Made by a program: the position numbers and the translations under genes. From assembly GCA_964644725.1 (NCBI GenBank), contig CAZXXV010000002.1, positions 1-27,954 of the forward strand: a stretch of 27,954 nt of DNA, read 5' to 3'. Positions 612 through 27,903 of this stretch are shown one piece after another. Each line of letters begins with the position of its first letter. The first letter of the stretch is position 1. The notes below the pieces were generated by a model. That model saw nothing but the letters and a program-made list of their open reading frames with translations, made no database searches and was not told the DNA's origin. The stretch is from an uncultured bacterium. Its GTDB lineage: Bacteria; Methylomirabilota; Methylomirabilia; Methylomirabilales; 2-02-FULL-66-22.

Positions 612-2009
612 CTACTCTCCCCTGCGCAGTTTGTTCAGATGCTTCTTGGCGATGTCTACCCATTCCTTCTCTGAGGGCAGCGTGGATGCCAGCTCGATGT
701 ATCGCTCCCACTGATCGATGGCTTTCTTCGCGTCCACCTTCTCATAGACCAGGGCCAGGCCATAGGTGGCACCCGGATGGCGCGGATCGATGGAGAGGAC
801 CTGGCCGTAGCGCGCGATGGCCTCCTGATACAGGCCCTTCTCCTCGTAGAGCTCCGCCAAGTTCAGATGGGCTTCCATGAGCTTGGGGTCGAGCCGGATG
901 GCGCGTTCATATTCGGCCACGGCCTCGTGGTACAGTTGCTTCTCGTTGTAGTAGATCTTGCCCAGGCCGTAATGTACCCGGGCGTTCTCGGGCTCGAGTT
1001 GCAGCGCCTTCCGGTACTCGGCAATGGCCTCGTCGGACTGGCCCTTGGCCTGGCGGGCATCCCCCAGACCGACATACGCCTCCGCATAGTCCGGCGAGAG
1101 CTCCACGGCCTTCAGGTACGCCTGGATGGCCTGATCGTACAGGCGGCGCGGGCTGCTGACTAAGAGGTCACCCAGCCACCTGTAGGCATCCGGGAAGTTC
1201 GGATCGAGCTGGATGGCCTTGCGGATCTCCCCCGACCCCTTCCACCGGTTGTTGGTCGCGTAGAGGGAGATCCCCAGGCCATAGTGGGCCAGGGCGAAGT
1301 TCTGGTCCGCCTCCAGCGCCTTGCCAAACAGCGCGACGGCCTGCTCGTGGCCCTCCCGGGTCCGCAGGCCCTGCCGCCACATCGCCCGAGCGTACAGGGT
1401 GTAGGCTTCCAGAGAACTCGTGTGCTTGGCGAAGGCCGCCTGCAGGCGGCGCTCGTCGTGAGACGACAGCTTCACCTGGAATTGCTGGAGAAGCTGCCGC
1501 GCGATCCGCTCCTGGCCTGCCAGGAGCTCGCCCACGGGCCCGGCGATCTCCTCGATCTGATGGACCTGGCCCCCGTCGCGCGTGTCTGCAACCTTCGCCT
1601 GGACCTTCAGCGTGTCCCCGTCCAGGCTGTAGGTGCCGCTCACCAGCCCTCGCGCCTGGAGGTCGCGCGCCAGCTTGAGTGCGGCCTCATCCGTGAGGAC
1701 GTCAGCCAGAGACACGCTCAGACGCTGCCCCGCCCCCAGGATGGAGTCGGAGTCCACCACACGCACGGCGCGAACCTGGCGCAGCCCGTGCCGGATCGCC
1801 TCACCGAGGGCCTCCCCGAACGCCTCGGGCACGCCAGCGGCCGGCCCGACGAACGGGACAACCGCCAGCGGGATCTTCGGGGGAGCGGCCGGTGCCGGCG
1901 CCGCAGGCGCGGCCGCCAGACCCGGGGACGCTGCCATCCACAAAGCGACCATCAGCAGCAGGGCCACGACGGTGCGGCCCTGCGCGCTTCTAGTTGTTGC
2001 TCGCGTCAC
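612..2009 (-). CDS. Exported TPR-repeat protein with an N-terminal CsgG/FlgO/TolB-N-like alpha/beta domain
   Basis: ORF 612..2141; in-frame GTG at 2009 preferred because it avoids overlap with the upstream gene (start uncertain). Hydrophobic signal-like segment VVALLLMVALWMAASPGLA; IPLAVVPF...ISGTY-type domain (GLVSGTYSLDG); several TPR units (e.g. AIQAYLKAVELSPDYAEAYVGLG, AIAEYRKALQLEPENARVHYGLG). Confidence 0.85.
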   Translation of the reverse strand: MTRATTRSAQGRTVVALLLMVALWMAASPGLAAAPAAPAPAAPPKIPLAVVPFVGPAAGVPEAFGEALGEAIRHGLRQVRAVRVVDSDSILGAGQRLSVSLADVLTDEAALKLARDLQARGLVSGTYSLDGDTLKVQAKVADTRDGGQVHQIEEIAGPVGELLAGQERIARQLLQQFQVKLSSHDERRLQAAFAKHTSSLEAYTLYARAMWRQGLRTREGHEQAVALFGKALEADQNFALAHYGLGISLYATNNRWKGSGEIRKAIQLDPNFPDAYRWLGDLLVSSPRRLYDQAIQAYLKAVELSPDYAEAYVGLGDARQAKGQSDEAIAEYRKALQLEPENARVHYGLGKIYYNEKQLYHEAVAEYERAIRLDPKLMEAHLNLAELYEEKGLYQEAIARYGQVLSIDPRHPGATYGLALVYEKVDAKKAIDQWERYIELASTLPSEKEWVDIAKKHLNKLRRGE

Positions 2010-2118
2010 CCCATGTATTTCCCCTCCTCTGCCCTTCGACAGCGTTGCATGTGGAATGCCCTGGGTCGTTACGTGTTTCAGTCCCGGTGCCTTTCGGGCC
2101 AGGCTACCATAGACGCGC

Positions 2119-5100
2119 TCATGCCCGCCGCCCGCGGCCACCGAACCGCGCGGCGGCCGGGACGGCTGAACCTGCGGCCGTCGAAGACCCGCCGGCCCGC
2201 CGGCCCGTCAAGCCTCGCCCAACGGCCCCCCGAAATCGCAATCTCCGGATGGCCACATCCGGCAGGAACAGCAAGAGCGCCAGGGCCAGGAAGTACGGCC
2301 ATGCCTCGATCCAGATCCGGACCTTCTGCCGGTTCTGGGTGAAATTCTCCGCCGGCCGCGCGGGGGAAGCCCCGCCCGAGAGCATCGCCACGTCGCGGAG
2401 CATCCCCTCGTTGACCGCCAGGGCCCGGTGCTCCGGCGAGTACGGGACCACCAGCGATGCCACCTCGGACCCGATCGTCTTCTGGTCCTTCCGTTCCGCC
2501 ACACCCACGAGGTAGGCTCCCTGCTCCGCGGCCGGGAAGGCGCCGCGGTATCGCCCGGGGCCCACCTGCACGAGCGGCAGGACTCCCTGGGTCTTATCCG
2601 GGTAGACCACGCCGGCGTTGGCCTCCAGGAAGTTCACGAACTCTCCCTTCGCGTCCACGGCCTCAAGCTGGATCTCGCCGCGCCCGCCGCGCTGGATGAC
2701 CGAGGTCACGACTTCGCTCCGCTGCGCCGTCCTGAGCGTCCAGCGGACCAGTTGGCCGAAGAGCTTGCCGAACTCGTCCCACTTCAGCCACAGGATCCCC
2801 CACTTTCCCTTGGCATCGGAGGTGAAGGCCACGGTGCGACCCAGGCCGTAGCGCCAGGCCGATAGGATGGGGTCCCGCTGGTTCGAGATCAGGATCGTAT
2901 CCGCCGTCGGCTTGGGCGTCGCGGACACGTAGCCGCCCAGGGGCGGGACGCGGTCCCACTGGATGTCCTGGGCGATCTCGTGGCCCGGATGGACCAGCGC
3001 CGGCCGGAACGGCTGCTCGATGATGGAAGCCTTGCTGGCCAGTTGCGTCTCCAGTGTCAGGATCCGGGGAATGCTGTAGAGGTCGTCGGTATAGTAGAAG
3101 CGCCCCCGACCCCAGCGGGAGAGATCCGTCATGAACTTGACGTCCGCATCCTTGCCGATGGCCACGGAGGAGACGGTGATCTTGTCCTGCTGCATCCGGC
3201 GCACCAGGCCCGCGAAGTCCGCGGCCTGCACCTCGCCGTCGGAGAGCACCAGGACATGGCGCAGGAGCGCCTTCCGGTCGTAGATGGCTGCATACGCCTC
3301 CTTCAGCGGGGCAAACAGTTCGGTGCCGCCGCCCGCCTTGATGGTGGCGATCTCCTTGAGGATCCGATCCTTGTCCTTGGCCGAGCCCATGGGGACCACC
3401 CAGCTCCAGGCGGTGTCGAAGGCAATGACCCCGATCTCGTTCCGCTCGTCCAGAAGCTCCACCACGAGCTGGGCCGCCTCCTTGGCCAGGTCTACCTTGG
3501 AGAAGCGGGAGTCTATGCTGGTCTCCATGCTGCCGGACCGGTCGATGACCAGTATCACCGCCAGAGAGGGGATCTCGACTTTCTGCCGTGCCTCCATGGT
3601 CACCGGCAGGGCCTCCTCGACGGGCGTGTGGTAGTAGCCGCCCACGCCGAAGCTTTCCTCGCCGCCCAGCATGATCAGGCCACCCCCCTGGTCCCGGACG
3701 TAGTTGCGGAGGAGTTCCATCTGCGGCTTCGTCACGCGGAGGGCGGAGATGTTGCTCAGGATGATGGAATCGTACTGCGTGAGGCCCTCCATGGTGGTGG
3801 GCAGCGCCTCGGAACCGACCATCTCCACCTGGAGATTCTGCGCCCGCAGGGCGTTCAGCAGGTGCGCCCCTTGGTCGCGGTCCTTTTCGACATAGAGCAC
3901 CCTCGGCCGCCCGCGGACCGCCACCAGCCCCACGCCCCGGTTGTTCTCCTCGACCACGTCGTCGGGCGCCTCCAGGCGCGCCTGGAAGATGTGAAATCCG
4001 CCCTCATCGATGGACTGCTGGTAGGCGAAGACGTTCTTCCCGGCCGTGAGGTTGACGGGCTGGGCGCCCACGAACTCCCCATCCCGGTACACGGAGATGC
4101 GGCCCGCGGTCTCCTTCGCGCTCCAGGCCACGACGCGGACCAGGAAGGATTCGCCAAATTTCACCTCTTGCGGGACCACCAGGCGCTCCACCAGGACCTC
4201 GCCCGCATAGTCGTTCCTCAGGGGCACCACGTAGATGTCCGCCCCTTCGGCGCGGGCCCGCTGGGCGGCCTCGCGGGCGCTTCCCTGGTTCTCGTTGCCG
4301 TCGGTGAGGAGCACGATCCGCTTCGCGCCCTCGCGCGGGAAGGCGGCCAGGGCCAGCTTGATGGCCGCCCCGATGTCCGTCGCCCGGCTGGCAGCAGTGG
4401 CCGGCGCCTTCGCCGGCAGCGGATCGGTCCCCAGCGGGGTCTCCAGCACCGGGCTCCCGCCGAAGACGATCACGCCGTATCGGTCTCGCTTGTCGGCCGC
4501 CTTGACCGCATCCTGGATGTACTGCCAGGCCTTCGCCTTGTTCTCCAGCGAGACGCTGTCCGAGGTATCCAGCAGGAACAGGACGTTCAGTTGTTCCGTG
4601 GTGCGGTACAGGCCCGCGCCGCCCAGCCCGGCGATCACAAGCCCGATCACGATGACTCGGATAGCGGCGGCGGTGATCGGCCACTGGCCCTTCGCCTGGC
4701 GGTAGTACAGGGCCCCTTCCAGGAGGAGCAGGACGAGGCCCAGAATGGCAAACAGCTTCCAAGGCTCCTGGCGCGACGGGAAGGCGGCGGGCCCTTCTTC
4801 GGACGTCCCCTGGCCGCCTCGCTCCGGCAGCGCTTGCGCTCGGGGGACCACGTTGGACTCCCCATCCGACAGGAGGTTCACGGCGAAGCGCTGTTCCCAC
4901 GCGCCCGCCTTCAGGGTGTAGACGCCGGCGTGGGTCGTCTCGACGACACTCACTCGGCCATCCGCGTCCGCCCGGAGGGCGTGGGTCTTGCCGGTGGGAT
5001 CGGTGAGGGTGGCCTCCCGCACGCCCGCCGGCAGGCCGGTCGTCAGGGGCTGGCCGGTGCGGAGTTGCAGGCCCGCATCTTCGATCTGGCTTGGGTACAG

Positions 5101-7495: not shown

Positions 7496-8959
7496 TCAGC
7501 GGTTCTCCAGGGACTTGAAGTATTCCTTCACCTGCTCCCGGTAGTTGAACGGAATCGGCTCTTTGGTCAGGGTCTCCTCCATCATCTTCTGGTATTGCGA
7601 GAAGACGTCCATGTACTGCAGGCGCGAGGGATTCTGGGTCCCCGGTCCAGAGAGGTTGGTTTCGTAGGCCTCCATCTGGCCCTCGCGTAGCTCGCCTTCC
7701 AGCATGGAATCCTGCTTCTCCCCCCCGATCCGCGGGGTGGGATCGCCCTTGGTCTCCAGCGACTTCCCCGTGCCCGGGAGCGAGCCGCCCGTGGAACCGT
7801 CCTCGCTCTGGCCTTGCTCGCCCTCGCCCCGTTCCTTCCCCGAGCCGCCCTGCTGGCCTGGTGCCTCGCGCAGGTTGCGTCCCTTGCCGCGGCCGGCCTG
7901 GTCGCGATCGCGAAGCCGATTCAGGGCGCGCGACAAGGCGTCCATCATCTTGTCGGTAGAGCCTCCGCCCTCACGCTGCAGCTCGCTCATGAGGTCGTCG
8001 GGCAACCCGCCGCTTCCGAACCGCTGCGCACTCTGTCCCATTTCGGAGAGGAGGCGCTCGATCTGCTCCCACGTGAGGCCCTGCATCCGCCCCGACCGCA
8101 CCTGTTCCTGCATGCGCCGGATCATCACCTGGTACGGGCTCTGGGTGAAGTCCCGCTTCAGGTCCGGGATGCTCTCCGGCCGCGCCAGCAGCTTCAACCG
8201 CTCGTCCCCCTGCTTGATGAAGCTCCCGAAATCCGGCCGTTGCTGGCTCATCTTGGTGTCCTGGAAGATAGCGGCCAAGTCCCCGGTTTGCTCCCGCGCC
8301 GAGAGTGGCCCGCGCGGTGCCTCGCGCTCTTTTGTCTTCGGGAAGAGCTGGTCGGGCACGGCGGGGGTCGCCAGCTTCTGCTCCAGGGGCTTTTCCCGCT
8401 TTGCTTCCTCCTCGGTCGTGGCCTCGCGGCTGCTGGAGTCGCCCCCGGTAGCCGGCAGGCGCAACGGGAGAGGAGGCAACAGGGCGAGGGCCAGCGCCAG
8501 GGCGGCCACGGGCGCCGCCCACCGGGCTTCCGGCGGGAGGTGCACGGGAAACGCGCCTTCCGCACGGATCTCCCCCAGGCGGGCGGCCGTCTCGGCGAGC
8601 TGGGCGCGGACCATGTCGATGGGGTCGGCTGTCCCCTCCGGCGCGGCGGACAGATGCTCCTGCGCGCTGGTCAGGCGCTCCTTGAGATTGAGGCGCAAGT
8701 CTGCCAGGCGCGCAGCGTGGGCCGCGGGGAGTGGTGCCATGAGGCCATACAGGAATCCCAACAGCGCCAGGCCCACCACGAGGCCCCAGGCGACGAGAGG
8801 GCCGGCGGCAGGAAAGAGCCCTTTCACCAGCAGTGGCGCGAGGGCGAGCGCCAGGCCCACCACGAGGAAACGGATGCTGGCAGTCAGGGCCCGAACCAGG
8901 CGGAGGCGGCGCGAGAGGGAGCGAAGCGTCGTGCGGATTAACTCGCGATCATCCACCAT
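7496..8959 (-). CDS. MoxR-locus membrane protein with helical and Gly/Gln-rich C-terminal region (DUF4175-like)
   Basis: N-terminal TMs, AARLADLRLNLKERLTSA motif, a third TM, low-complexity GQQGGSG region, terminal IPFNYREQVKEYF motif typical of proteins in MoxR/DUF58/VWA loci; GGAG RBS. Confidence 0.8.
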   Translation of the reverse strand: MVDDRELIRTTLRSLSRRLRLVRALTASIRFLVVGLALALAPLLVKGLFPAAGPLVAWGLVVGLALLGFLYGLMAPLPAAHAARLADLRLNLKERLTSAQEHLSAAPEGTADPIDMVRAQLAETAARLGEIRAEGAFPVHLPPEARWAAPVAALALALALLPPLPLRLPATGGDSSSREATTEEEAKREKPLEQKLATPAVPDQLFPKTKEREAPRGPLSAREQTGDLAAIFQDTKMSQQRPDFGSFIKQGDERLKLLARPESIPDLKRDFTQSPYQVMIRRMQEQVRSGRMQGLTWEQIERLLSEMGQSAQRFGSGGLPDDLMSELQREGGGSTDKMMDALSRALNRLRDRDQAGRGKGRNLREAPGQQGGSGKERGEGEQGQSEDGSTGGSLPGTGKSLETKGDPTPRIGGEKQDSMLEGELREGQMEAYETNLSGPGTQNPSRLQYMDVFSQYQKMMEETLTKEPIPFNYREQVKEYFKSLENR

Positions 8960-8962
8960 GGA

Positions 8963-10156
8963 TCAGATCTCCCTGCGGTCCGGACCGTTCGCCTTCCCCG
9001 CTCTATATTCCGCATTCATCATTCCGCATTCCGCATTCGACAGGCATTGACGCCGCCGAATGGCCCCGCCGCCCACCACCAAGTCGGGGTCGTTCGCGTC
9101 GTAGAAGACCGCGGCCTGTCCGGGGGCCACAGCCCGCTGGGGCTCGTCGAAACAGAGGCGCACGCGATCCGCGTCGCGGGGAATCACCGTCGCAGCCGCC
9201 GCCGGCTGGGCGTACCGAATCTTCGCCAGGACCCGCTGCGGCCCGGCCAGGCGCGCAACCGCGATGAGATTTACCCGGCCCACCTCGACATCTCGCGTCC
9301 AGAGATCCTTGTCTTCCCCGACGATGACCTCGTTCTTCCCGGGATCCAGATGGATCACGTAGAGGGGCTGGTGGTTCGCGATGCCGAGGCCGCGCCGCTG
9401 CCCGACCGTGTAGAGCGCCACTCCCTGGTGCTCCCCGCGCACCGCGCCGGCCGCATCCCGGATGATCCCCGGGATGATGGCATCTCCCACGCGCGCCCGG
9501 AGGTAGGTACGGTAGTCCCTGGAGACGAAGCAGATCTCCTGGCTATCGGGCTTTGTCGCCACCGCCAATCCCAACTCTGCGGCGAGGCGTCGGGTTTCTT
9601 CCTTCCGCAGGTGGCCCACCGGGAAAAGCGCTGCTGCCAGTTGATCCTGAGTCAGGTCGTAGAGAAAGTAGCTTTGGTCCTTCCGGGGATCCACGGCGCG
9701 TCGCAGCCGGTATCGTCCCGTGGCCGGGTCATACTCCACGCGAGCGTAGTGCCCGGTGGCCATACGCGTCGCACCCCACCCCTTCGCCCGAGCAAATAGC
9801 GAGCCGAACTTCAGTCGCGAGTTGCAGGGCACGCAGGGATTCGGGGTCTCGCCGTTGAGATAGGCCTCGGCGAAGTACTGGATGACCTCGCGATCAAACT
9901 CGGCCTCGTAGTTCAGCACATAGTGGGGAATCCCGAGCGTCTCCGCCACGGTCCGTGCGTCCTCCACCGCTTCCGGCGAGCAGCAACTGTCGAAGCGCTG
10001 GCTGGGGTCGGCCGGGCGCTGGCTGGGCCAGATCCGGAGGGTGATCCCGACGACCGGCACGCCCTGGCGAGCGAGGAGCGCCGCGGCCACGGATGAGTCC
10101 ACCCCGCCGCTCATGGCCACGACGGCCGTCCCCTTCGCCTGATGTGGAAATGTCAC
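8963..10156 (-). CDS. mnmA: tRNA 2-thiouridine(34) synthase MnmA
   Basis: AMSGGVDS, CCS, PNPCVPCN, ATGHYA, KDQSYFL, KPDSQEICF, GQRRGLG, PGQAAVFY. True start GTG at 10156 overlaps the iscS TGA; the ORF-track extension to 10843 overlaps iscS in another frame. Confidence 0.96.
   Translation of the reverse strand: MTFPHQAKGTAVVAMSGGVDSSVAAALLARQGVPVVGITLRIWPSQRPADPSQRFDSCCSPEAVEDARTVAETLGIPHYVLNYEAEFDREVIQYFAEAYLNGETPNPCVPCNSRLKFGSLFARAKGWGATRMATGHYARVEYDPATGRYRLRRAVDPRKDQSYFLYDLTQDQLAAALFPVGHLRKEETRRLAAELGLAVATKPDSQEICFVSRDYRTYLRARVGDAIIPGIIRDAAGAVRGEHQGVALYTVGQRRGLGIANHQPLYVIHLDPGKNEVIVGEDKDLWTRDVEVGRVNLIAVARLAGPQRVLAKIRYAQPAAAATVIPRDADRVRLCFDEPQRAVAPGQAAVFYDANDPDLVVGGGAIRRRQCLSNAECGMMNAEYRAGKANGPDRREI
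9007..9041. repeat. Heptamer tandem repeat (ATTCCGC ATTCATC ATTCCGC ATTCCGC ATTCGAC) inside the mnmA 3' end
   Basis: Five 7-bp units read directly. Confidence 0.85.
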
Positions 10157-18490: not shown

Positions 18491-19339
18491 CTAGCGTGGC
18501 CCCGCGATGAGCTCCACGAGGCGCGTGAGGTCCTCGTCGGAGAAAAAGCTGATCTCCAAGGTGCCCCCCTTGCCGTTCCGCACGATCCGGACCTTCGTTC
18601 CCAGGGCCACCCGAAGCTGATCCTCGAGGGCCTGCAGGTTGGGATCGCCGCTCCTGGGGCGACCGCCCGGGCCGCGTGCCCCGCGGCGCAGGCGACGGAC
18701 CAGCGCCTCAGTGGCCCGGACGGTGAGCCCGCGCTTGAGGATGAGGTCCCTGGCCTTGAGCTGATCCGCCGCCTTCTCGAGGCCCAGCAGGGCGCGGGCG
18801 TGCCCCTCCGACAGCGTCCCGGCCGCCAGATCCTCGCGCAGTCGCCGGGGAAGGCGCAGGAGGCGGAGGGCATTGGCCACCGAGGATCGGTCCCGGCCCA
18901 GCCGCTCCGCGACCTCCTCCTGGGTCAGGCCGAACTCCTCGATGAGGCGCCGGTAGGCCTCGGCCGCCTCCACCGGGTTCAGGTCCTCCCGCTGGAGGTT
19001 CTCCACCAGGGCCATTTCCAGCGCCTGGGCGTTGCTTGCCTCCTTGATGATCGCGGGGATGCGCGTGAGCCCGGCCAGCCGCGCCGCGCGGACCCTTCGC
19101 TCCCCGGCCACAACCTGATACCCGTGGGGGGCGCGGCGGACCACCACCGGGGTCAGCACGCCGTGGGTCCGGATGGTGGCCGCCAGTTCCTCCATGGCTC
19201 CCGGCTCGAAGTGTCGCCGGGGCTGCAGCGGGTTGCTCTCCAGTTCTGCCAGCGGAATCTCTAGGCTGGCCGCCCCGGTCCCTTCGGCGCCGGGGATCAG
19301 GGCCGAGAGCCCCCTACCGAGCCCGCGCTTTTGAACCAT
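18491..19339 (-). CDS. parB: Chromosome partitioning CTPase ParB/Spo0J
   Basis: KRGLGRGLSALI, NPLQPRRHF, VAGERRVRAA, LVENLQREDLNPVE, HTH RSSVANALRLL. Confidence 0.97.
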   Translation of the reverse strand: MVQKRGLGRGLSALIPGAEGTGAASLEIPLAELESNPLQPRRHFEPGAMEELAATIRTHGVLTPVVVRRAPHGYQVVAGERRVRAARLAGLTRIPAIIKEASNAQALEMALVENLQREDLNPVEAAEAYRRLIEEFGLTQEEVAERLGRDRSSVANALRLLRLPRRLREDLAAGTLSEGHARALLGLEKAADQLKARDLILKRGLTVRATEALVRRLRRGARGPGGRPRSGDPNLQALEDQLRVALGTKVRIVRNGKGGTLEISFFSDEDLTRLVELIAGPR

Positions 19340-20163: not shown

Positions 20164-20179
20164 TGTTTCACGTGAAACA
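20164..20179. promoter_or_regulatory. parS centromere-like site
   Basis: Perfect palindrome TGTTTCACGTGAAACA matching the parS consensus, directly upstream of parA. Confidence 0.95.
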
Positions 20180-20194: not shown

Positions 20195-20872
20195 TCACCC
20201 GGCTCGCCGCAACGCCAGCACCTGGCGCCCAGGACGCCCGAGGGAGGGGGGGAGGGCCAGTTCCCGGACCATCTCGAAGCCCAAGCCCAACAGTCGCTCC
20301 AGGGCCCCTGCGTCCACCGCCCCTGCCCCGACCTGGACCAGGAAAAGGCCGCCGGGGCGCAGGAACGGCCGCACCAGGCGTCCCTGCTCGGGCGGCGGAG
20401 CCACGGCTCGCGCCAGGGCCAGGTCGTAGGCGCCCACCTCCTCTGGATCGCCGGCCAGTTCCTCGGCGCGGCGCCGGATGACCCGAATCGTCGCCAGCCC
20501 GAGCTGCCGCACGATGTGCTGGAGGAACGTTGCCTTCTTGCGGGAGGCTTCCACCAGGGTAAACGAGAGGTCGGGCCGCACGAGCTTCAGGGGCAACCCG
20601 GGAAAACCCGCTCCAGACCCGATATCCAGGGCGCGCCTGGCGTCGGGGGGAATGAGGGGCAGGCAGGCCAGCGAGTCGAGGAATCCCGCTCGAACGATAT
20701 CCTCCGGCTCGCGGAGCGCAGTCAGGTTCACCCGCGCCGACCAGCGGGTGATCTCCTGGAGATAGGTGCGGAAGGCCGCCACCTGGCTCGGCGTAAGGTG
20801 GAGGCCCAGAGCGAGGGCGCCAGTGACCAGCAGGTCATCAGGCCCGGGCCGGGGGCCATGGGGCAGCTTCAT
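20195..20872 (-). CDS. rsmG: 16S rRNA m7G527 methyltransferase RsmG (GidB)
   Basis: WSARVNLTA, FLDSL, LDIGSGAGFPG, LVEASRKKATFL, ARAVA; canonical position upstream of parA. Confidence 0.92.
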   Translation of the reverse strand: MKLPHGPRPGPDDLLVTGALALGLHLTPSQVAAFRTYLQEITRWSARVNLTALREPEDIVRAGFLDSLACLPLIPPDARRALDIGSGAGFPGLPLKLVRPDLSFTLVEASRKKATFLQHIVRQLGLATIRVIRRRAEELAGDPEEVGAYDLALARAVAPPPEQGRLVRPFLRPGGLFLVQVGAGAVDAGALERLLGLGFEMVRELALPPSLGRPGRQVLALRRAG

Positions 20873-20902: not shown

Positions 20903-22579
20903 TTATGCCGCCTGCCCTTCGGCGGGGGCCGGGCGCGCCGGCGACCGGGTGATCAGCCATTGCTGGCCGATCTGCAGGATGTTGTTGACCAGCCAGTACA
21001 GGACGAGGCCTGAGGGGAACCCCCAGAACATGAACGTGAAGATGATCGGCATCATCCAGAGCATCATCTGGGCCTGGCGAGGGTCCCCGGCGGGCGGCGA
21101 CATCTTCTGCTGGACCCACATGCTCACGCCCATGAAGAGGGCGAGGATGTTGCCAACATTTCGGGTGGCACCATAAAGGTCCAGTGTGAATAGCGAGTCG
21201 GGTTGGGTCAGGTCACGGATCCACAGGAAGGGGGCCTGCCACATCTCGACGGAGTTGGCCAGGGCGTTGTACAGAGCAATGAAGATGGGGATCTGCACAA
21301 CCATGGGCAAACACCCGCCCATGGGATTCACCCCGTGCTTCTTGTAGAGGGCCATCGTCTCCTCTTGCTTTTTCTTGGGGTTGTTCTTGTACCGCTCCTG
21401 GATCGCCTGCACCTTGGGCTGGATGGTCTGCATGGCCTGCATGGACTTTAGGCTCTTCACGGTGAGGGGATAGAAGGCGATCTTCTGCAGCACGGTCACC
21501 AGGATGATGGCGATCCCGTAATTGCCCGTGAAGCCATAGAGGAACTTCAGGAGCCACAGGGCGGGCCGGGCCAGGAAGTCGAACCATCCCAGGTCCACGA
21601 GGTTGTCGAGGTCGTGGCCCACCTCTCGGAGCACGTCGAGGTCCTTGGGTCCGGCAAACACCAGGGCGCTGGCGCTCGTCTGGCCGCCCGGAGGCAGGGT
21701 TTGCTTGGCCGCCGCCAGGCCCAGAAGCGGCTGGTCCTCGGCGGCTTTCTTCACAAAGGCCTGGAGGCCCTTGTCCTTGGGGATGAGGGCTGCCGCGAAG
21801 TACGTATCCTGCAGGGCCGCCCAAGAGAGGCTCCCCGCTTGAACCTTCTCCCCGTTCACCTTGGTGAGGTCTTCGTGCACCCGCTTCCCGTCCAGCCAGA
21901 GGGTGGGCGCCTGCAGCGTGGTGTTCTTCTTGTCCAGGCTGTTCCGCAGGCCCGGCCCCCAGGCGAGCCGCGGCTCCGCCGGCACGTCTGCACCCGAAAG
22001 GTTCCGGACGGTCAGATCCACCTCAACCTGGTACCGGTCCGCGTGGAAGGTCAGCTTCTTCTGGATCTCGATCCCCGAGACGGACACCTGCGTGAACGTC
22101 ACGGTTCCGGTCTCATCGCGACCGGCCAGATCGAGCCGCTGGCGGTCCACCTGGTAGACGGCCTGCGCCTGCTCCCCATCCGCCCAGGCAGCCAGTGATC
22201 CAGGCGATGCCCCGGGATCCTTCATCGCGACCAGATCCACCGGGCCACCGCTGCCCATACGATACTTCTTCAACTGCCAACTCGTGGCGCGTGCGCCCGC
22301 GGTCGAGAGCGTCACCCGCATGAGAGGCGTTTCGACGACGACCTCGCGTATCGGGAGCTCAAGCTGGACCGTGGGTGTGTAGCCTTTCGGCCGCGGCGAG
22401 CTCTTCGGGCGGGCGGGAACCGGCGCGCTCGCAGCCGGTGGCGCGACCGGTGCCGTGGGTGTGGTCGCAGTGGGGCGGGCGGGTTCCTGCGGCGGGGAAT
22501 CGACCCGCGAGAGGTACCACTGGTACCCCAGCAGGATCAGGATGACCAACACCGTCGCGAGGATTGCGTTTCTTTCCAT
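20903..22579 (-). CDS. yidC: Membrane protein insertase YidC
   Basis: N-terminal TM, periplasmic domain, GNYGIAIILVT, NPMGGCLPMVVQIPIF, PSGLVLYWLVNN. Confidence 0.97.
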   Translation of the reverse strand: MERNAILATVLVILILLGYQWYLSRVDSPPQEPARPTATTPTAPVAPPAASAPVPARPKSSPRPKGYTPTVQLELPIREVVVETPLMRVTLSTAGARATSWQLKKYRMGSGGPVDLVAMKDPGASPGSLAAWADGEQAQAVYQVDRQRLDLAGRDETGTVTFTQVSVSGIEIQKKLTFHADRYQVEVDLTVRNLSGADVPAEPRLAWGPGLRNSLDKKNTTLQAPTLWLDGKRVHEDLTKVNGEKVQAGSLSWAALQDTYFAAALIPKDKGLQAFVKKAAEDQPLLGLAAAKQTLPPGGQTSASALVFAGPKDLDVLREVGHDLDNLVDLGWFDFLARPALWLLKFLYGFTGNYGIAIILVTVLQKIAFYPLTVKSLKSMQAMQTIQPKVQAIQERYKNNPKKKQEETMALYKKHGVNPMGGCLPMVVQIPIFIALYNALANSVEMWQAPFLWIRDLTQPDSLFTLDLYGATRNVGNILALFMGVSMWVQQKMSPPAGDPRQAQMMLWMMPIIFTFMFWGFPSGLVLYWLVNNILQIGQQWLITRSPARPAPAEGQAA

Positions 22580-22606: not shown

Positions 22607-22825
22607 CTAGGGGACCGGGTCGAGGCCGCCCGGATGATACGGGTGGCAGCGCAGCAGGCGCCAGATCGTCAGCCCCAAGCCCCGGACGAGGCCGTGGCGC
22701 GCTAGGGCGCCCATGGCGTATTCCGAGCAGGTCGGGAAAAAGCGGCAGGCCGTTGGAAGGGCCGGTCCCACCCACCGCTGATATCCGCGGATGAGGATTG
22801 TAATGGCGTTTGAGATTCTATCCAT
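22607..22825 (-). CDS. yidD: Membrane protein insertion efficiency factor YidD
   Basis: IRGYQRW...[11 protein letters not shown]...HG...[17 protein letters not shown]; start set at ATG 22825. Confidence 0.95.
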
Positions 22826-23177
22826 GGGCCGTTGTATCCGCCTGACGGCGCGCCAGGGCATTCGCGAGACGAGTCAGCAGTTCTGCCAGGCTGGCGCGTA
22901 TCTGCCGGCGCGGATGGCCGCTCACGTCGCTCCTCGCGAGGAGCAACAGGTCCATCCCTGGGGAGCAACCGAACTTGTCCGCGAACACGTCTCGCGCGAT
23001 GCGGCGGATGCGGCTGCGCGCCGTGGCGCTGCCTGCGATCCGCCCCAGCGCCACGATCAGTCGCCCGCCTCCGCCCGGTGCGTTATCCCCGCACGCGGTC
23101 CACGGACCCGCGCTCACCCGGACGCCGCGCCGCCGCAGACGGCTGGCTGGCGTCTCCGCGCCCCGCCTGGCTGTCAT
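22818..23177 (-). CDS. rnpA: Ribonuclease P protein component, highly diverged
   Basis: Position between rpmH and yidD; degenerate RNR helix [15 protein letters not shown]; DLLLLAR strand. Confidence 0.75.
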
Positions 23178-23186
23178 GCCGTCTGC

Positions 23187-23321
23187 CTAAACCGTGAGCC
23201 GGTATCGCCCCTTCGCGCGGCGCCGCTTCAAAACCTTGCGGCCATCCGCTGTACTCATCCGCTTGAGGAACCCGTGGCTGCCCTTGCGCTTACTCCGGTT
23301 CGGCTGATATGTCCGCTTCAT
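23187..23321 (-). CDS. rpmH: 50S ribosomal protein L34 (44 aa; below the ORF-track cutoff)
   Basis: Manual translation [44 protein letters not shown]; GGAGG RBS. Confidence 0.97.
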
Positions 23322-23355
23322 GAATCCTCCATGTATGAATTCCAAGAGGGGGTTG

Positions 23356-23385
23356 ATAATATGGCGCCTGGCTTTGGTCTGTCAA
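23356..23385 (-). promoter_or_regulatory. Putative sigma70 promoter of the rpmH operon
   Basis: Minus strand TTGACA (23385-23380), 18 bp, TATTAT (23361-23356). Confidence 0.7.
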
Positions 23386-23389
23386 GCCT

Positions 23390-24000
23390 TGCAAGCTATT
23401 TAAATTCTGGCTCATTGCTTCGTCTCTGATACGCATGGATCATAACCTCGTCTGATCTTCTGCCTTGATGCGAACCTACTCGATATACCGCGCTTCAAAT
23501 TCACCGCAAGATCTTGTTTCCGACTCCGGAGGCGTCTTCCGGCCATAATGGTGAACAAGACATTTCATAACATATTGAATTTAAAGGATAAATTCACTTA
23601 TCCACATCTGTGGAAAAGCCTGTGTGTAACTCCCATTTTCCTGGTGGGCCCACGAAGCAATTTCACGCGGTTAATTGGCAACTTGGAATGTCTTGGGTAT
23701 CGTAAAATCTTAACCTTTCGTTGACAATTTTGACCGCGGTTTGGTAAAATGTGTGGGTAATCGGGATGGTTTGCTCGTCTTTTCCACAGGAGGGAGGCTT
23801 TAGGAACGCGGCGATTTCTCCGCTGAGAGATCGGGCCGTTTTCTCCACACAGATCTGGTCATCCGGAGTCCAGACAATCCGTGTCTTTAGTGGATTGTCC
23901 ACGTATCCGGCGGACTACGGTTACTCCTACGGTTTCTTTGTATTTTGATTTTATCTACTAGTGCTTGTGTGTTGAGTAATCAAATATTCCTGCGTCGCGC
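23390..24000. other. Putative chromosomal origin of replication (oriC)
   Basis: AT-rich gap with DnaA boxes TTATCCACA (23598-23606), TGTGGAAAA (23609-23617), TGTGTGTAA (23621-23629), TGTGGGTAA (23752-23760), TTTTCCACA (23780-23788), TTCTCCACA (23841-23849), TTGTCCACG (23895-23903); T-rich unwinding-like tract at about 23932-23960; lies between rpmH and dnaN, near parS. Confidence 0.8.
23721..23750 (+). promoter_or_regulatory. Putative sigma70 promoter upstream of dnaN with an adjacent DnaA box
   Basis: TTGACA (23721-23726), 18 bp, TAAAAT (23745-23750) with TGn; DnaA box at 23752-23760. Confidence 0.7.
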
Positions 24001-24056
24001 TTTCAGCATTCCCGACAACTACGGGACGTGTGACCGAACAAGAGAAAGGAAGGCAC

Positions 24057-25160
24057 ATGCATATTCGTGTTGACCGGGATGCCTTCGTAGACGCCCTGGG
24101 ACCGGTGCAGGGAGTGGTTGAGGCCAAGAAGACGCTCCCCATTCTCTCACACCTCTTACTGGAAGCAAACCCGGACGGCGTCTGGCTGTTCGGAACAGAC
24201 CTCGACGTAGGAATTCGGAGAGGACTCGCGGCCGAGGTGGTGAAGCCCGGCGCGGTTGCGCTGTCTGCGAAGAAGCTCTACGACATCGCACGCGAATTGC
24301 CTCAGGCCCCGGTGGAATTGCAGGCGGATGCGGACCTGCAGGTGGCCATCCGCTGTCAGCGATCCAGTTTCCGTATGAAGGGACTCCCGCGGGATGAGTT
24401 TCCGTCCTTACCGGATCTCAAGGGAGATAACGAGATTACACTGGAGACGCAGCTCTTCCGGGATATGTTGCGCAAGACACTGTTCGCCGTCTCCTCCGAT
24501 CAGACGCGTTACGCGTTGACGGGGGTGCTCGTGCAAGTGTTGGCTGGCGAGATTCGAATGGTCGCGACGGACGGGCACCGATTGGCCCTGGTGCACGCCC
24601 CGCGACCACCCGAAAAGGGTGGCGCAACGCTGGAGGCGCTCGTTCCGAAGAAAGCCATGGTGGAGGCGGCGAAGATCACCCGGGAGGACGGAAGCGATGT
24701 CCGGATGTGGCTCGCCGAGAATCAACTGATCCTCGAACAGGAGGCCAGCACGCTTGTGGCCCGACTCATTGACGGCCAGTTTCCGAACTATGATCAGGTG
24801 ATCCCGGCGCCCGGCGCGAGCAGGATCCTCATCGGGAGGGAGGCCCTCCAGGGGGCGCTGCGGCGGACCTCGGCCATCATGGGGGAACGGACCACGGCCA
24901 CGGAGTTCGAGTTTCGTCCGGGTAAGGTCGTCGTGTCGTGCGTTAATATGGATCTCGGTGAGGCCCACGAGGAGCTTGAGGCCTCATACGAGGGCGATGG
25001 ATTCAAAGTCGGGTTCAACGCCCGGTATATCTTAGAGTTTCTTGCGGCCATTGATGGCGCGGAAATCTCCCTGAGCATCGCCGATCCCCTTAGCCCTGCA
25101 CTGTTCCGGCCCGCCGGAGACGACGCCTACGGGTGCGTGATCATGCCCATGCGGATCTAG
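24057..25160 (+). CDS. dnaN: DNA polymerase III beta sliding clamp
   Basis: AAGGAAGG RBS, ATG at 24057; KKTLPILS, GTDLDV, VATDGHRLA, RLIDGQFPNY, GFNARYILEFL, VIMPMRI. Confidence 0.97.
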   Translation: MHIRVDRDAFVDALGPVQGVVEAKKTLPILSHLLLEANPDGVWLFGTDLDVGIRRGLAAEVVKPGAVALSAKKLYDIARELPQAPVELQADADLQVAIRCQRSSFRMKGLPRDEFPSLPDLKGDNEITLETQLFRDMLRKTLFAVSSDQTRYALTGVLVQVLAGEIRMVATDGHRLALVHAPRPPEKGGATLEALVPKKAMVEAAKITREDGSDVRMWLAENQLILEQEASTLVARLIDGQFPNYDQVIPAPGASRILIGREALQGALRRTSAIMGERTTATEFEFRPGKVVVSCVNMDLGEAHEELEASYEGDGFKVGFNARYILEFLAAIDGAEISLSIADPLSPALFRPAGDDAYGCVIMPMRI

Positions 25161-25398
25161 CGGGACGGGGAACCCGCGCAGGGCGGCATGAGAAGCAGGA
25201 CCTCGAGAGCGATCGCAGGATCACCAGCGCCGCCACGGGGAACGTCGGGGGATCAGCCGAACGGAACCGGCACGAAATACGGAGCCGACGGGGGCGAGGC
25301 CCCTCGAGACCCTCCACTCCTTGTGCCCGGGCCTGATTAGCGCCCCTGCCTGGGTAGGAGGCGGAGGGTTTCTTGTGTCGCGGAGGACACTGCGGTAA

Positions 25399-27902
<2,504 letters not shown>

Positions 27903-27903
<1 letters not shown>

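What the first reader, a model, noticed from the sequence alone, without database searches (positions are those of the whole stretch)
23322..24056. oriC-like locus with DnaA boxes but no dnaA gene between rpmH and dnaN
Seen: the rpmH-dnaN gap is only about 735 bp, AT-rich, with two DnaA-box clusters (23598-23629 and 23752-23903). I found no ORF resembling DnaA in it, and a roughly 450-aa gene cannot fit. A good sigma70 promoter with a DnaA box at its start site points into dnaN. Known: rpmH<-dnaA->dnaN-recF-gyrB is the ancestral order, with boxes often flanking dnaA and dnaA autorepressed through a promoter box. Inference: dnaA was cleanly removed, leaving the two origin halves joined and the former dnaA promoter driving dnaN. 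Either the initiator acts in trans from a relocated gene, or the lineage lost dnaA and this is a relic or alternatively initiated origin.
Basis: partly seen in the sequence, partly recalled or inferred. Interest (0 to 1): 0.8.

Follow-up and report, generated by a model that had tools for sequence, protein, structure and literature searches.

The report
Replication origin whose dnaA gene moved away
The gap between rpmH and dnaN looks like a working, DnaA-type chromosome replication origin formed when dnaA dropped out from between its two halves; this is the norm for the whole Methylomirabilales/NC10 lineage and a kind of origin already known from cyanobacteria and Sorangium, so it is tidy but not surprising.

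Summary
rpmH (23187-23321, -) and dnaN (24057-25160, +) are separated by 735 bp of 46% GC DNA in a 66% GC window. All perfect DnaA boxes in the window lie in this gap. No dnaA gene or remnant is present.

The gap has two modules:
- A three-box block at 23598-23630.
- A box, 11-nt spacer, CTA/TTA trios and an AT-rich tract at 23895-23990, built like the B. subtilis unwinding module upstream of dnaN.

Both modules are conserved in at least 25 independent assemblies, with DnaN identity falling to 49% (a looser three-box block persists at 54% in L059). One assembly is a closed 5.65 Mb genome. Misassembly is therefore excluded.

In the sister clade (Rokubacteria-type) the order is rpmH, three-box block, dnaA, unwinding module, dnaN, recF, gyrB.

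The "former dnaA promoter" idea is not supported. The strong TTGACA-18-TAAAAT promoter is absent from 67 sister-clade loci.

I could not locate dnaA in this lineage. Conservation of the boxes argues that DnaA acts in trans. An origin linked to dnaN with dnaA elsewhere is already documented in cyanobacteria and Sorangium, so this is a new member of a known kind.

The parts
20164..20179 (.). Perfect parS site TGTTTCACGTGAAACA between rsmG and parA, 3.9 kb from the gap. It marks an origin-proximal region.
   Evidence: 1 match with 0 mismatches; 0 expected in 100 shuffles.
23187..23321 (-). rpmH (ribosomal protein L34). It heads the leftward rpmH-rnpA-yidD-yidC-rsmG-parA-parB string.
23356..23385 (-). 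Promoter-like site for rpmH: TTGACA, 18 nt, TATTAT.
   Evidence: 11 of 12 positions match.
23561..23597 (.). AT-rich tract directly left of the three-box block. It is the least stable duplex in the whole window (50-bp GC minimum 0.22). It could be a second unwinding or bending region.
   Evidence: Partly conserved as CATAAC...TTGAAT.
23598..23630 (.). Block1: TTATCCACA-tc-TGTGGAAAA-gcc-TGTGTGTAA-C. It holds three DnaA boxes (+,-,-) spaced 11 and 12 bp start to start. It is homologous to the block just upstream of dnaA in the sister clade.
   Evidence: In one search it is the only segment that aligns between the two arrangements (E 1e-8).
23721..23750 (+). Strong sigma-70-type promoter pointing towards dnaN: TTGACA, 18 nt, TG-n-TAAAAT. 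It is conserved in the dnaA-less lineage and absent from the sister clade.
23752..23760 (-). DnaA box (TGTGGGTAA on the + strand) over the predicted transcription start. It is a likely operator.
   Evidence: most positions 0.8-0.9 conserved.
23780..23788 (+). DnaA box TTTTCCACA, pointing towards the trios.
23841..23849 (+). DnaA box TTCTCCACA. A weaker copy, TTCTCCGCT, lies at 23816-23824 inside a 25-nt direct repeat.
23895..23903 (+). Trio-proximal DnaA box TTGTCCACG (2 mismatches). Relatives have TTGTCCACA or CTATCCACA here.
23904..23914 (.). 11-nt GC-rich spacer between the box and the first trio.
   Evidence: Read from the printed sequences, the spacer is 11-13 nt in the dnaA-less relatives and about 8-12 nt in the sister clade. 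The BUS norm is 10-13 bp.
23915..23938 (+). DnaA-trio-like repeats CTA CGG TTA CTC CTA CGG TTT CTT, formed by a 12-nt tandem duplication.
   Evidence: repeat D3; the first CTAC is 0.9 conserved.
23939..23990 (.). AT-rich tract downstream of the trios (GC minimum 0.26). It is the most likely DNA-unwinding element by position.
   Evidence: The position matches the sister-clade dnaA-dnaN spacer.
24057..25160 (+). dnaN (beta clamp). It is preceded by the RBS GAAAGGAAGG at 24044-24053.
25459..27903 (+). gyrB, directly after dnaN. recF is also missing from the ancestral cluster.

Best explanation
The rpmH-dnaN gap is the chromosomal replication origin of a Methylomirabilales/NC10-type bacterium.

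Origin of the arrangement. It derives from an ancestral bipartite origin with the order rpmH, box block, dnaA, boxes plus unwinding module, dnaN. The dnaA gene has left this position, and recF has left the dnaN-gyrB spacer.

Proposed mechanism. Every step below is inferred from sequence.
1. DnaA, made from a gene elsewhere in the genome, binds the three-box block (23598-23630) and the array of same-sense boxes at 23780-23903.
2. Starting from the trio-proximal box (23895-23903), a DnaA oligomer extends over the 11-nt spacer onto the CTA/TTA trios (23915-23938).
3. It opens the AT-rich tract at 23939-23990.
4. A strong promoter specific to this lineage (23721-23750) has a DnaA box over its start site. 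It transcribes through the boxes and the unwinding module into dnaN-gyrB. DnaA occupancy would therefore couple clamp and gyrase expression, and possibly origin opening, to initiator level.

Shown: the anatomy, its conservation, the lineage-wide gene order, and homology of both modules to those that flank dnaA in the sister clade.

Inferred: DnaA binding, unwinding at this site, promoter activity and repression, and the existence of dnaA elsewhere.
For: Box enrichment.
- All three perfect boxes in the window lie in the gap.
- Relatives show the same pattern: 2-5 boxes in the gap against 0-3 in the other 3.5-20 kb of each locus.

Phylogenetic footprint.
- Twenty-five non-identical dnaA-less sequences were aligned, with DnaN identity to the window of 49-97%.
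- Mean identity to the window across the region is 0.49.
- The three-box block, the -35, the -10, the start-site box, the boxes at 23780, 23841 and 23895, and the first trio all score 0.8-0.9.
- Ascertainment bias applies only to the three-box block, which was the search pattern for 15 of the 25.

Unwinding-module criteria.
- The criteria of PMC8287927 are at least 3 trios within 16 bp of a DnaA box, with a spacer peak at 10-13 bp.
- They are met here with an 11-nt spacer.
- Every relative examined meets them.
- Orientation and order match what I recall of the B. subtilis dnaA-dnaN spacer (own knowledge).

The module travels with dnaN.
- In L009 the upstream gene is a LysR regulator, not rpmH.
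- Both modules still sit upstream of dnaN there.

Sister clade.
- L062, L078, L125 and 67 metagenome contigs have the same block 57-87 bp before dnaA.
- In L062, L078 and L125, where the dnaA-dnaN spacer was read, it holds the box/trio module.

Origin-proximal context.
- A perfect parS lies 3.9 kb away.
- parAB, rsmG and yidC are adjacent.
- Every gene to the left is on the minus strand and every gene to the right on the plus strand.
- GC skew changes sign at the gap in 7 of 8 loci.

Not an assembly artefact.
- The same order appears in a closed 5.65 Mb long contig, in NCBI MAGs, and in JGI, ENA and Logan contigs.
Against: - No DnaA protein from this lineage was found.
  - Three protein searches, one exhaustive representative search, two genome-collection scans and two metagenome scans returned only sister-clade or unrelated DnaA.
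  - The step 'DnaA acts in trans' therefore rests on box conservation alone.
- The chromosome-wide GC-skew minimum could not be computed.
  - Within the window the cumulative minimum is near 12 kb, not at the gap.
  - The local sign change is confounded by the switch in gene orientation.
- The least stable duplex is the AT tract to the left of the three-box block (23554-23606), not the tract after the trios. The unwinding site is therefore ambiguous.
- For M. oxyfera, the table in PMC8287927 built on DoriC origins places the predicted module at the very end of the record. Its sequence differs from the dnaN-upstream module of a Methylomirabilis sp. MAG. A database origin call for the phylum's best-known member may thus lie at another locus.
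Confidence: 0.8

Rival explanations
1. The gap is not the origin. It is a DnaA-controlled regulatory region, and possibly a DnaA-titrating site, for the dnaN-gyrB operon. It would have been left behind when the origin function moved with dnaA to another locus.
For: - A consensus promoter with a box over its start site is the best-conserved lineage-specific element.
- The origin listed for M. oxyfera lies at the end of the record, and its module sequence differs.
- The skew evidence at window scale is not decisive.
Against: - The box, spacer, trio and AT-rich module has no known role in transcription control, yet it is kept in position and orientation in every relative.
- It is homologous in position to the dnaA-dnaN spacer module of the sister clade.
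- parS and the strand switch are here.
- In L009 the module stays with dnaN even though the upstream neighbour has changed.
Confidence: 0.12
2. The lineage has lost canonical dnaA. The boxes are bound by a different or highly divergent initiator, or the origin fires by a DnaA-independent route, as in some cyanobacteria and insect endosymbionts.
For: No DnaA attributable to the lineage turned up in any search. Both dnaA and recF are gone from the ancestral cluster.
Against: - The searches were blind to this lineage by design. Each listed only the top 120 or 150 hits, and these were filled by sister-clade or other phyla. The negative result is therefore weak.
- Consensus TTATCCACA-type boxes, their phasing and the trios stay fixed across lineages whose DnaN is only 57-60% identical. 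That is not expected once the cognate protein is gone.
- These are free-living organisms with genomes of about 5.6 Mb, not reduced symbionts.
Confidence: 0.04
3. This is an assembly artefact: a collapsed or chimeric junction hides dnaA.
For: None beyond the general possibility for a metagenome-derived contig.
Against: The identical order appears in 25 non-identical sequences from independent projects and assemblers. They include a 5,645,311-bp contig and its independent Logan short-read contig.
Confidence: 0.01

Closest known systems
dnaN-linked oriC of cyanobacteria (Synechococcus elongatus PCC 7942 and Anabaena PCC 7120 confirmed experimentally) and of Sorangium cellulosum
   Same: - A DnaA-box cluster lies directly upstream of dnaN, and dnaA is not adjacent.
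- TTTTCCACA-type boxes are among those used.
- The proposed history is the same: an ancestral dnaA-dnaN origin from which dnaA was translocated (PMC2650636, PMC4009838).
   Different: - Here rpmH is still the other neighbour, so only dnaA (and recF) dropped out.
- Both box clusters of the ancestral bipartite origin are retained side by side.
- A sister clade that still has dnaA in place makes the event directly visible.
- The presence of dnaA elsewhere is not shown here.
Bacillus subtilis bipartite oriC (box clusters upstream and downstream of dnaA) and its basal unwinding system (BUS)
   Same: - The downstream half has the same order and orientation: same-sense DnaA boxes, a short GC-rich spacer, CTA/TTA trios, an AT-rich tract, then dnaN.
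- The spacer length lies in the 10-13 bp peak (PMC8287927).
- Transcription from upstream reads through the module into dnaN (own knowledge for B. subtilis).
   Different: - No dnaA lies between the halves.
- The trios are less regular: CGG interrupts them.
- The promoter is not the dnaA promoter.
- Nothing has been tested biochemically.
Rokubacteria-type (sister clade) rpmH-dnaA-dnaN-recF-gyrB origin region
   Same: - The three-box block is homologous, with 86-91% identity over 33-36 nt.
- The same box/trio module sits upstream of dnaN.
- The flanking genes are the same: yidC, rnpA, rpmH on one side and dnaN, gyrB on the other.
   Different: - dnaA, and usually recF, are present there.
- The block is 57-87 bp from the dnaA start.
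- There is no TTGACA-18-TAAAAT promoter.
- The non-coding DNA totals about 240 bp, against 448-655 bp from block to dnaN in the window's lineage.

Membership tests
DnaA-dependent bacterial chromosomal origin (oriC) | Cluster of DnaA boxes in an intergenic region, above chance | tested here: met
   3 matches against 0.17 expected, all in the gap; 5 of 7 one-mismatch boxes are in the gap. Relatives show the same.
DnaA-dependent bacterial chromosomal origin (oriC) | AT-rich DNA-unwinding element next to the boxes | tested here: met
   Two AT-rich tracts, with GC minima of 0.22 and 0.26 in a 66% GC window. Sequence cannot say which one opens.
DnaA-dependent bacterial chromosomal origin (oriC) | Located at the chromosome-wide GC-skew switch | tested here: inconclusive
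   The local sign change falls at the gap in 7 of 8 loci, but it is confounded by gene orientation. The cumulative minimum within the window is near 12 kb.
DnaA-dependent bacterial chromosomal origin (oriC) | A cognate DnaA protein encoded in the genome | tested here: inconclusive
   DnaA is absent from the window and from about ±10 kb of sequence in each of 10 related loci. Database searches could not reach this lineage.
DnaA-dependent bacterial chromosomal origin (oriC) | Replication actually initiates here | not testable with these tools
   Needs coverage profiles, marker-frequency analysis or biochemistry.
Basal unwinding system (BUS; PMC8287927) | At least three trio motifs within 16 bp of a DnaA box, with a spacer near 10-13 bp | tested here: met
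   Box 23895-23903, 11-nt spacer, trios from 23915. The same layout appears in all relatives and in the sister clade. The published criterion is loose, so conservation carries most of the weight.
Bipartite oriC split by dnaA (B. subtilis / H. pylori type) | dnaA lies between the two box clusters | tested here: not met
   No dnaA or remnant in the gap. The feature is met in the sister clade. The window is therefore a derived, fused form and not a member.
dnaN-linked oriC with dnaA elsewhere (cyanobacteria / Sorangium type) | Box cluster directly upstream of dnaN, with dnaA not adjacent | tested here: met
   This is the lineage norm.
dnaN-linked oriC with dnaA elsewhere (cyanobacteria / Sorangium type) | dnaA present at another chromosomal locus | tested here: inconclusive
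   Not found. See the DnaA row under oriC above.
DnaA-repressed promoter | DnaA box overlapping the core promoter or the start site | tested here: met
   The box at 23752-23760 starts 2 nt after the -10. Box and promoter are conserved together. Repression itself cannot be tested here.

The most novel reading that the evidence does not exclude
A widespread, free-living soil lineage with genomes of about 5.6 Mb has no canonical dnaA at all. It nevertheless keeps a complete, selectively maintained box/trio origin that is served by a divergent or non-homologous initiator.
Probability: 0.04. Interest if true: 0.85.

Novelty: new member of a known kind. Interest (0 to 1): 0.3.

Why it matters
- It gives a clean natural example of how a bipartite origin split by dnaA turns into a single origin linked to dnaN. 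The before state (Rokubacteria-type) and the after state (Methylomirabilales/NC10-type) both survive in sister clades, and the homologous modules can be recognised on each side.
- Origin-calling pipelines that anchor on dnaA would misplace the origin in this lineage, and genome-rotation conventions that start records at dnaA would not start them at it. The conserved 33-nt three-box block is a practical marker for the origin in these uncultured soil bacteria.
- The lineage-specific promoter reads through the unwinding module and has a DnaA box at its start site. That is a testable case of coupling between initiator level, clamp and gyrase expression, and origin opening.
- None of this changes current understanding of bacterial replication initiation.

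Tried and rejected
1. Looking for dnaA in the window. I ran Pfam on all large ORFs, including the 448-487-aa ORFs at 7496-9050, and tblastn with E. coli DnaA. Nothing was found.
2. Looking for a decayed dnaA in the gap. I ran relaxed tblastn and blastn against the sister clade. Only the three-box block aligns.
3. Literature on dnaA in Rokubacteria or Methylomirabilis. Nothing relevant.
4. Fetching the M. oxyfera locus listed in the supplement of PMC8287927 by its 32-nt string. There was no exact match in the genome or metagenome collections.
5. Finding the lineage's DnaA.
   - High-GC Walker-A DNA patterns on viral contigs gave only phage or unrelated DnaA.
   - Sister-clade DnaA (L062) as a query returned 120 sister-clade clusters at 72% identity or more.
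   - I ran an exhaustive search of 50%-identity representatives.
   - I followed P0265, which is an orphan Rokubacteria-like DnaA lacking domain I.
   - I followed four more candidates, and none belongs to the lineage:
     - P0267: MAG at 50% GC; tetranucleotide signature does not match the lineage reference.
     - P0284: dnaA sits next to dnaN.
     - P0380: contig at 72% GC; tetranucleotide signature does not match.
     - P0342: dnaA sits next to dnaN.
   - P0134, labelled NC10, has the sister-clade arrangement.
   - Cluster look-ups gave almost no organism names.
6. Testing whether a relocated dnaA kept the three-box block. Among 120 metagenome contigs that carry the block, none pairs it with dnaA in a contig of the window's lineage.
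7. The 'SDC' motif as a phylum signature for DnaA. Rejected, because it also occurs in Chloroflexota and Acidobacteria-like sequences.
8. A DciA domain in the TPR protein at 612-2141, prompted by a preprint on DciA-TPR fusions in Rokubacteria. Not found.
9. Rfam. No RNA family hit anywhere in the window.
Full report
**What is in the window**

The window is 66% GC. From about 16 kb to 23.3 kb every gene is on the minus strand. The string includes parB (18491-19339), parA, rsmG (20195-20872), yidC (20903-22579), yidD, rnpA (22818-23177) and rpmH (23187-23321). To the right, dnaN (24057-25160) and gyrB (25459-27903) are on the plus strand.

The gap between rpmH and dnaN is 735 bp at 46% GC. No large ORF scanned in the window hits a DnaA family. 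tblastn with E. coli DnaA, taken from NC_000913, finds nothing in the window or in related loci. recF is also missing between dnaN and gyrB.

**Check of the observation**

- The relaxed box TTWTNCACA occurs three times in 27,954 bp, and all three are in the gap. The expectation is 0.17, and 0 of 100 shuffles reach three.
- Five of the seven matches within one mismatch of TTATCCACA are in the gap.
- Exact coordinates were verified.
- The promoter scan finds TTGACA-18-TAAAAT at 23721-23750 on the plus strand. It matches 11 of 12 positions and has an extended -10. A divergent rpmH promoter lies at 23385-23356.
- The box at 23752-23760 begins 2 nt after the -10.

**Anatomy of the gap**

There are two modules.

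- *Block1 (23598-23630).* Its sequence is TTATCCACA-tc-TGTGGAAAA-gcc-TGTGTGTAA-C. It holds three boxes, in + - - orientation, spaced 11 and 12 bp start to start.
- *The downstream module.* It is an array of same-sense boxes at 23780, 23841 and 23895, with a weak copy at 23816. The last box (TTGTCCACG, 23895-23903) is followed by:
  - an 11-nt GC-rich spacer;
  - eight triplets, CTA CGG TTA CTC CTA CGG TTT CTT (23915-23938), formed by a 12-nt tandem duplication;
  - an AT-rich tract (23939-23990, GC minimum 0.26);
  - the ribosome-binding site and dnaN.

This is the layout of the basal unwinding system described for B. subtilis and other bacteria. The published search rule asks for at least three trios within 16 bp of a DnaA box, with spacers peaking at 10-13 bp (PMC8287927). 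From memory, the B. subtilis dnaA-dnaN spacer has the same order and orientation.

A second AT-rich tract lies just left of Block1 (23561-23597). It is the least stable duplex in the window. Sequence alone cannot say which tract opens.

**Lineage and synteny**

The closest DnaN relatives run from 99% down to 55% identity. One, at 69%, is named 'candidate division NC10 bacterium RBG_16_65_8'. In the genome collection three hits carry relevant names:

- the 92% hit is 'Candidatus Methylomirabilales bacterium';
- the 54% hit is 'Candidatus Methylomirabilis sp.';
- the 68% hit is labelled 'Candidatus Baltobacteraceae', which I take to be a mislabel or a mis-binned contig.

Every relative I looked at has rpmH or rnpA, then a gap, then dnaN and gyrB, with no dnaA:

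- a closed 5,645,311-bp contig (DnaN 74%, gap 1171 bp) and its independent Logan contig;
- L003-L005 (85%; rpmH-gap-dnaN is seen in L003 and L004, L005 lacks the upstream part);
- L007 (67%);
- L012 (60%);
- L006 (58%);
- L057-L060 (92-49%).

In L009 (57%) the upstream gene is a LysR regulator instead of rpmH, and dnaA is still absent.

Misassembly is therefore excluded, and the order is a lineage norm.

**Conservation of the elements**

Alignment of five gaps, inspection of L009 and L012, and inspection of L057-L060 show both modules at the same relative positions. In L009 both modules remain upstream of dnaN, so the origin elements travel with dnaN and not with rpmH.

A 25-sequence alignment of non-identical dnaA-less gaps has a mean identity to the window of 0.49. 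Islands at 0.8-0.9 fall on:

- Block1;
- GTTGACA (-35);
- TTTGGTAAAAT (-10);
- TGTGGGTAA (start-site box);
- TTTTCCACA (23780);
- TCCACA (23844);
- TTGTCCAC (23895);
- the first trio, CTAC (23915).

The coordinates printed are one lower than the true ones. Fifteen of the 25 sequences were retrieved with the Block1 pattern, so Block1 conservation is partly circular. The other islands were not selected for.

**The sister clade shows the ancestral state**

Three genome loci have rpmH, dnaA, dnaN in the classical order. They are named 'Candidatus Methylomirabilia' (L062, L078) and 'Candidatus Rokuibacteriota' (L125), and their DnaN is 40-43% identical to the window's. Their DnaA clusters with proteins named 'Candidatus Rokubacteria bacterium'.

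- The rpmH-dnaA spacer contains the same Block1 shortly before the dnaA start (the printed spacers put its last base some 10-20 nt upstream). In L125, for example, it reads CTATCCACATCTGTGGATAACTGTGTGTGTAAC.
- The 165-170-bp dnaA-dnaN spacer contains a same-sense box, a short spacer (about 8-11 nt in L078 and L125; the layout is less regular in L062), CTA/CTC/CGA triplets and a T-rich tract.

They sort as follows:

| Group | Arrangement | Contigs |
|---|---|---|
| Sister-clade type | Block1, then dnaA at +57 to +87; dnaN follows at about +1530 wherever the contig reaches that far | 67, plus 5 too short to tell |
| Window type | Block1, then dnaN at +448 to +655, no dnaA | 15, plus 11 partial contigs with rpmH 84-95% identical to the window's |
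| Third lineage, GC 49-57% | Block1, dnaA, dnaN, without rpmH | 14 |
| GC 37-49% | none of these genes | 8 |

Most sister-clade loci also keep recF between dnaN and gyrB. The window's lineage does not.

Only Block1 aligns at the DNA level between the two arrangements, with E as low as 1e-8. No DnaA-like coding remnant is detectable in the gap.

The idea that the two origin halves were joined after dnaA was removed is well supported.

The idea that the former dnaA promoter now drives dnaN is not:

- In the sister clade Block1 lies within 57-87 bp of the dnaA start.
- No TTGACA-N16-19-TAnAAT occurs anywhere between 450 bp upstream of Block1 and dnaN in 67 loci.
- The simple scan finds no strong plus-strand promoter there.
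- In the window's lineage the promoter lies about 90 bp downstream of Block1. It sits in roughly 200-400 bp of extra non-coding DNA that has no counterpart in the sister clade.

The promoter therefore arose with or after the loss of dnaA. It is strongly conserved together with its start-site box.

**Origin-proximal context**

- A perfect parS (TGTTTCACGTGAAACA) lies at 20164-20179, with zero expected by chance.
- GC skew is negative to the left and positive to the right of the gap in 7 of 8 loci. This coincides with the switch in gene orientation and is not independent evidence.
- Within the window the cumulative skew minimum is near 12 kb.
- The chromosome-wide minimum could not be computed.

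**Where is dnaA?**

This is unresolved.

- It is not within 23 kb to the left of the gap; to the right the window shows only dnaN-gyrB (about 4 kb), and L001 of the closed genome shows none within 11 kb. It is not within about ±10 kb in nine other loci.
- Searches seeded with sister-clade DnaA returned only sister-clade proteins at 72% identity or more.
- The exhaustive representative search gave 150 clusters.
- I followed five of those clusters. Four were other lineages or sat next to dnaN. The fifth (P0265) was an orphan domain-I-less variant whose closest relatives are sister-clade DnaA.
- None of the listed hits came from the 5,645,311-bp contig.

These negatives are weak. The listings are capped, and a DnaA that is 50-65% identical to the sister clade's would be hidden in either search.

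The positive argument for a trans-acting DnaA is evolutionary. Consensus boxes, their phasing and the trios are held fixed across lineages whose DnaN has diverged to 57-60% identity.

**Comparison with what is known**

- An oriC next to dnaN rather than dnaA is described as the rule in cyanobacteria, with experimentally confirmed origins in S. elongatus PCC 7942 and Anabaena PCC 7120. It is also predicted in Sorangium cellulosum. Translocation of dnaA away from an ancestral dnaA-dnaN origin has been proposed as the cause (PMC2650636, PMC4009838).
- In my genome scan, several MAGs labelled Myxococcota, Deltaproteobacteria, Proteobacteria or unclassified also show rpmH next to dnaN without dnaA.
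- For M. oxyfera, the supplement of PMC8287927 lists a predicted module at 2,752,462-2,752,494, the end of the record. Its sequence differs from the dnaN-upstream module of a Methylomirabilis sp. MAG. I could not retrieve that locus. The database origin call for that genome may therefore lie at a different locus.

**Verdict**

The feature is most likely a functional DnaA-dependent origin, fused from the two halves of a bipartite origin after dnaA and recF left. A lineage-specific, box-controlled promoter reads through it into dnaN-gyrB. It is a new member of a known kind. It would interest specialists in origin evolution but would not surprise them.

The one reading that would be surprising is true absence of DnaA. 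It is not excluded, but it is improbable, at about 4%.

Noticed in passing
window 25161-25458: recF is missing between dnaN and gyrB, where a 298-bp spacer stands. Most sister-clade loci have dnaN-recF-gyrB, so two genes left the ancestral cluster in this lineage, not one.
   Followed up: partly
window 20164-20179: A perfect 16-bp parS palindrome lies at the rsmG/parA junction.
   Followed up: partly
window 7496-8959 (-): A 487-aa ORF between the DUF58 gene and mnmA has no Pfam family, even at E=10. Shadow ORFs on the other strand also have none.
   Followed up: partly
window 2125-2217 (-): ARAGORN calls a 93-nt tRNA-Arg(TCG) that overlaps the junction of the 1472-aa BatA/VWA ORF and the TPR ORF. 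Its length and position suggest a false positive, or mis-set ORF starts.
   Followed up: no
window 612-2141 (-): This TPR protein gives a weak ANAPC3 hit. A preprint reports DciA-TPR-ANAPC3 fusions in Rokubacteria, but no DciA domain is detectable in this protein.
   Followed up: yes
L159 (JGI Ga0187773_10013898), downstream of the three-box block: In one metagenome contig of the window's lineage the block is followed by more than 1.5 kb of foreign-looking sequence instead of dnaN. A long reverse-strand ORF there suggests a mobile-element insertion into the origin region.
   Followed up: no
L144, L151, L167, L184, L185, L194, L195, L197, L215, L218, L229, L243, L246: A third lineage (GC 49-57%) carries the same three-box block 85-87 bp upstream of dnaA-dnaN, with no rpmH nearby. 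Its DnaA is about 50% identical to the sister clade's. The block is therefore older or wider than the two clades compared here.
   Followed up: no
L158, L165, L177, L179, L192, L201, L205 (GC 37-40%): The exact 25-specified-base block pattern also occurs in low-GC contigs that have no dnaA, dnaN or rpmH within the fetched stretch. The context is unknown.
   Followed up: no
P0265 (JGI contigs up to 4.3 kb): A 363-aa DnaA lacks domain I and carries changes in normally invariant motifs (EEFFHTFN becomes GELAHTFN; RFEWGL becomes RLEGGL). Its closest relatives are sister-clade DnaA at 63-73% identity. It may be a degenerating or specialised paralogue.
   Followed up: partly
P0259 (1990 aa), P0263 (1876 aa), P0264, P0271: These are large proteins with two Bac_DnaA ATPase domains and no DNA-binding domain IV. 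The two largest also have an MshEN domain. They score among the best matches to sister-clade DnaA.
   Followed up: partly
L065, L067, L087, L088, L091, L094, L096, L097, L129: MAGs labelled Myxococcota, Deltaproteobacteria, Proteobacteria or unclassified bacterium also have rpmH next to dnaN with no dnaA between them. Myxococcaceae loci (L100, L115, L118, L124) have dnaN with neither gene nearby.
   Followed up: no
L137 1-888: In a MAG at 50% GC, the region upstream of a dnaA that is not followed by dnaN holds about three tandem copies of a repeat of roughly 180 nt. A dense array of perfect TTATCCACA/TGTGGATAA boxes follows.
   Followed up: no
L058 (DATJQT010000081.1): This contig is titled 'Candidatus Baltobacteraceae', but its DnaN is 68% identical to the window's and it has the same origin modules. 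It is probably mis-binned or mislabelled.
   Followed up: no
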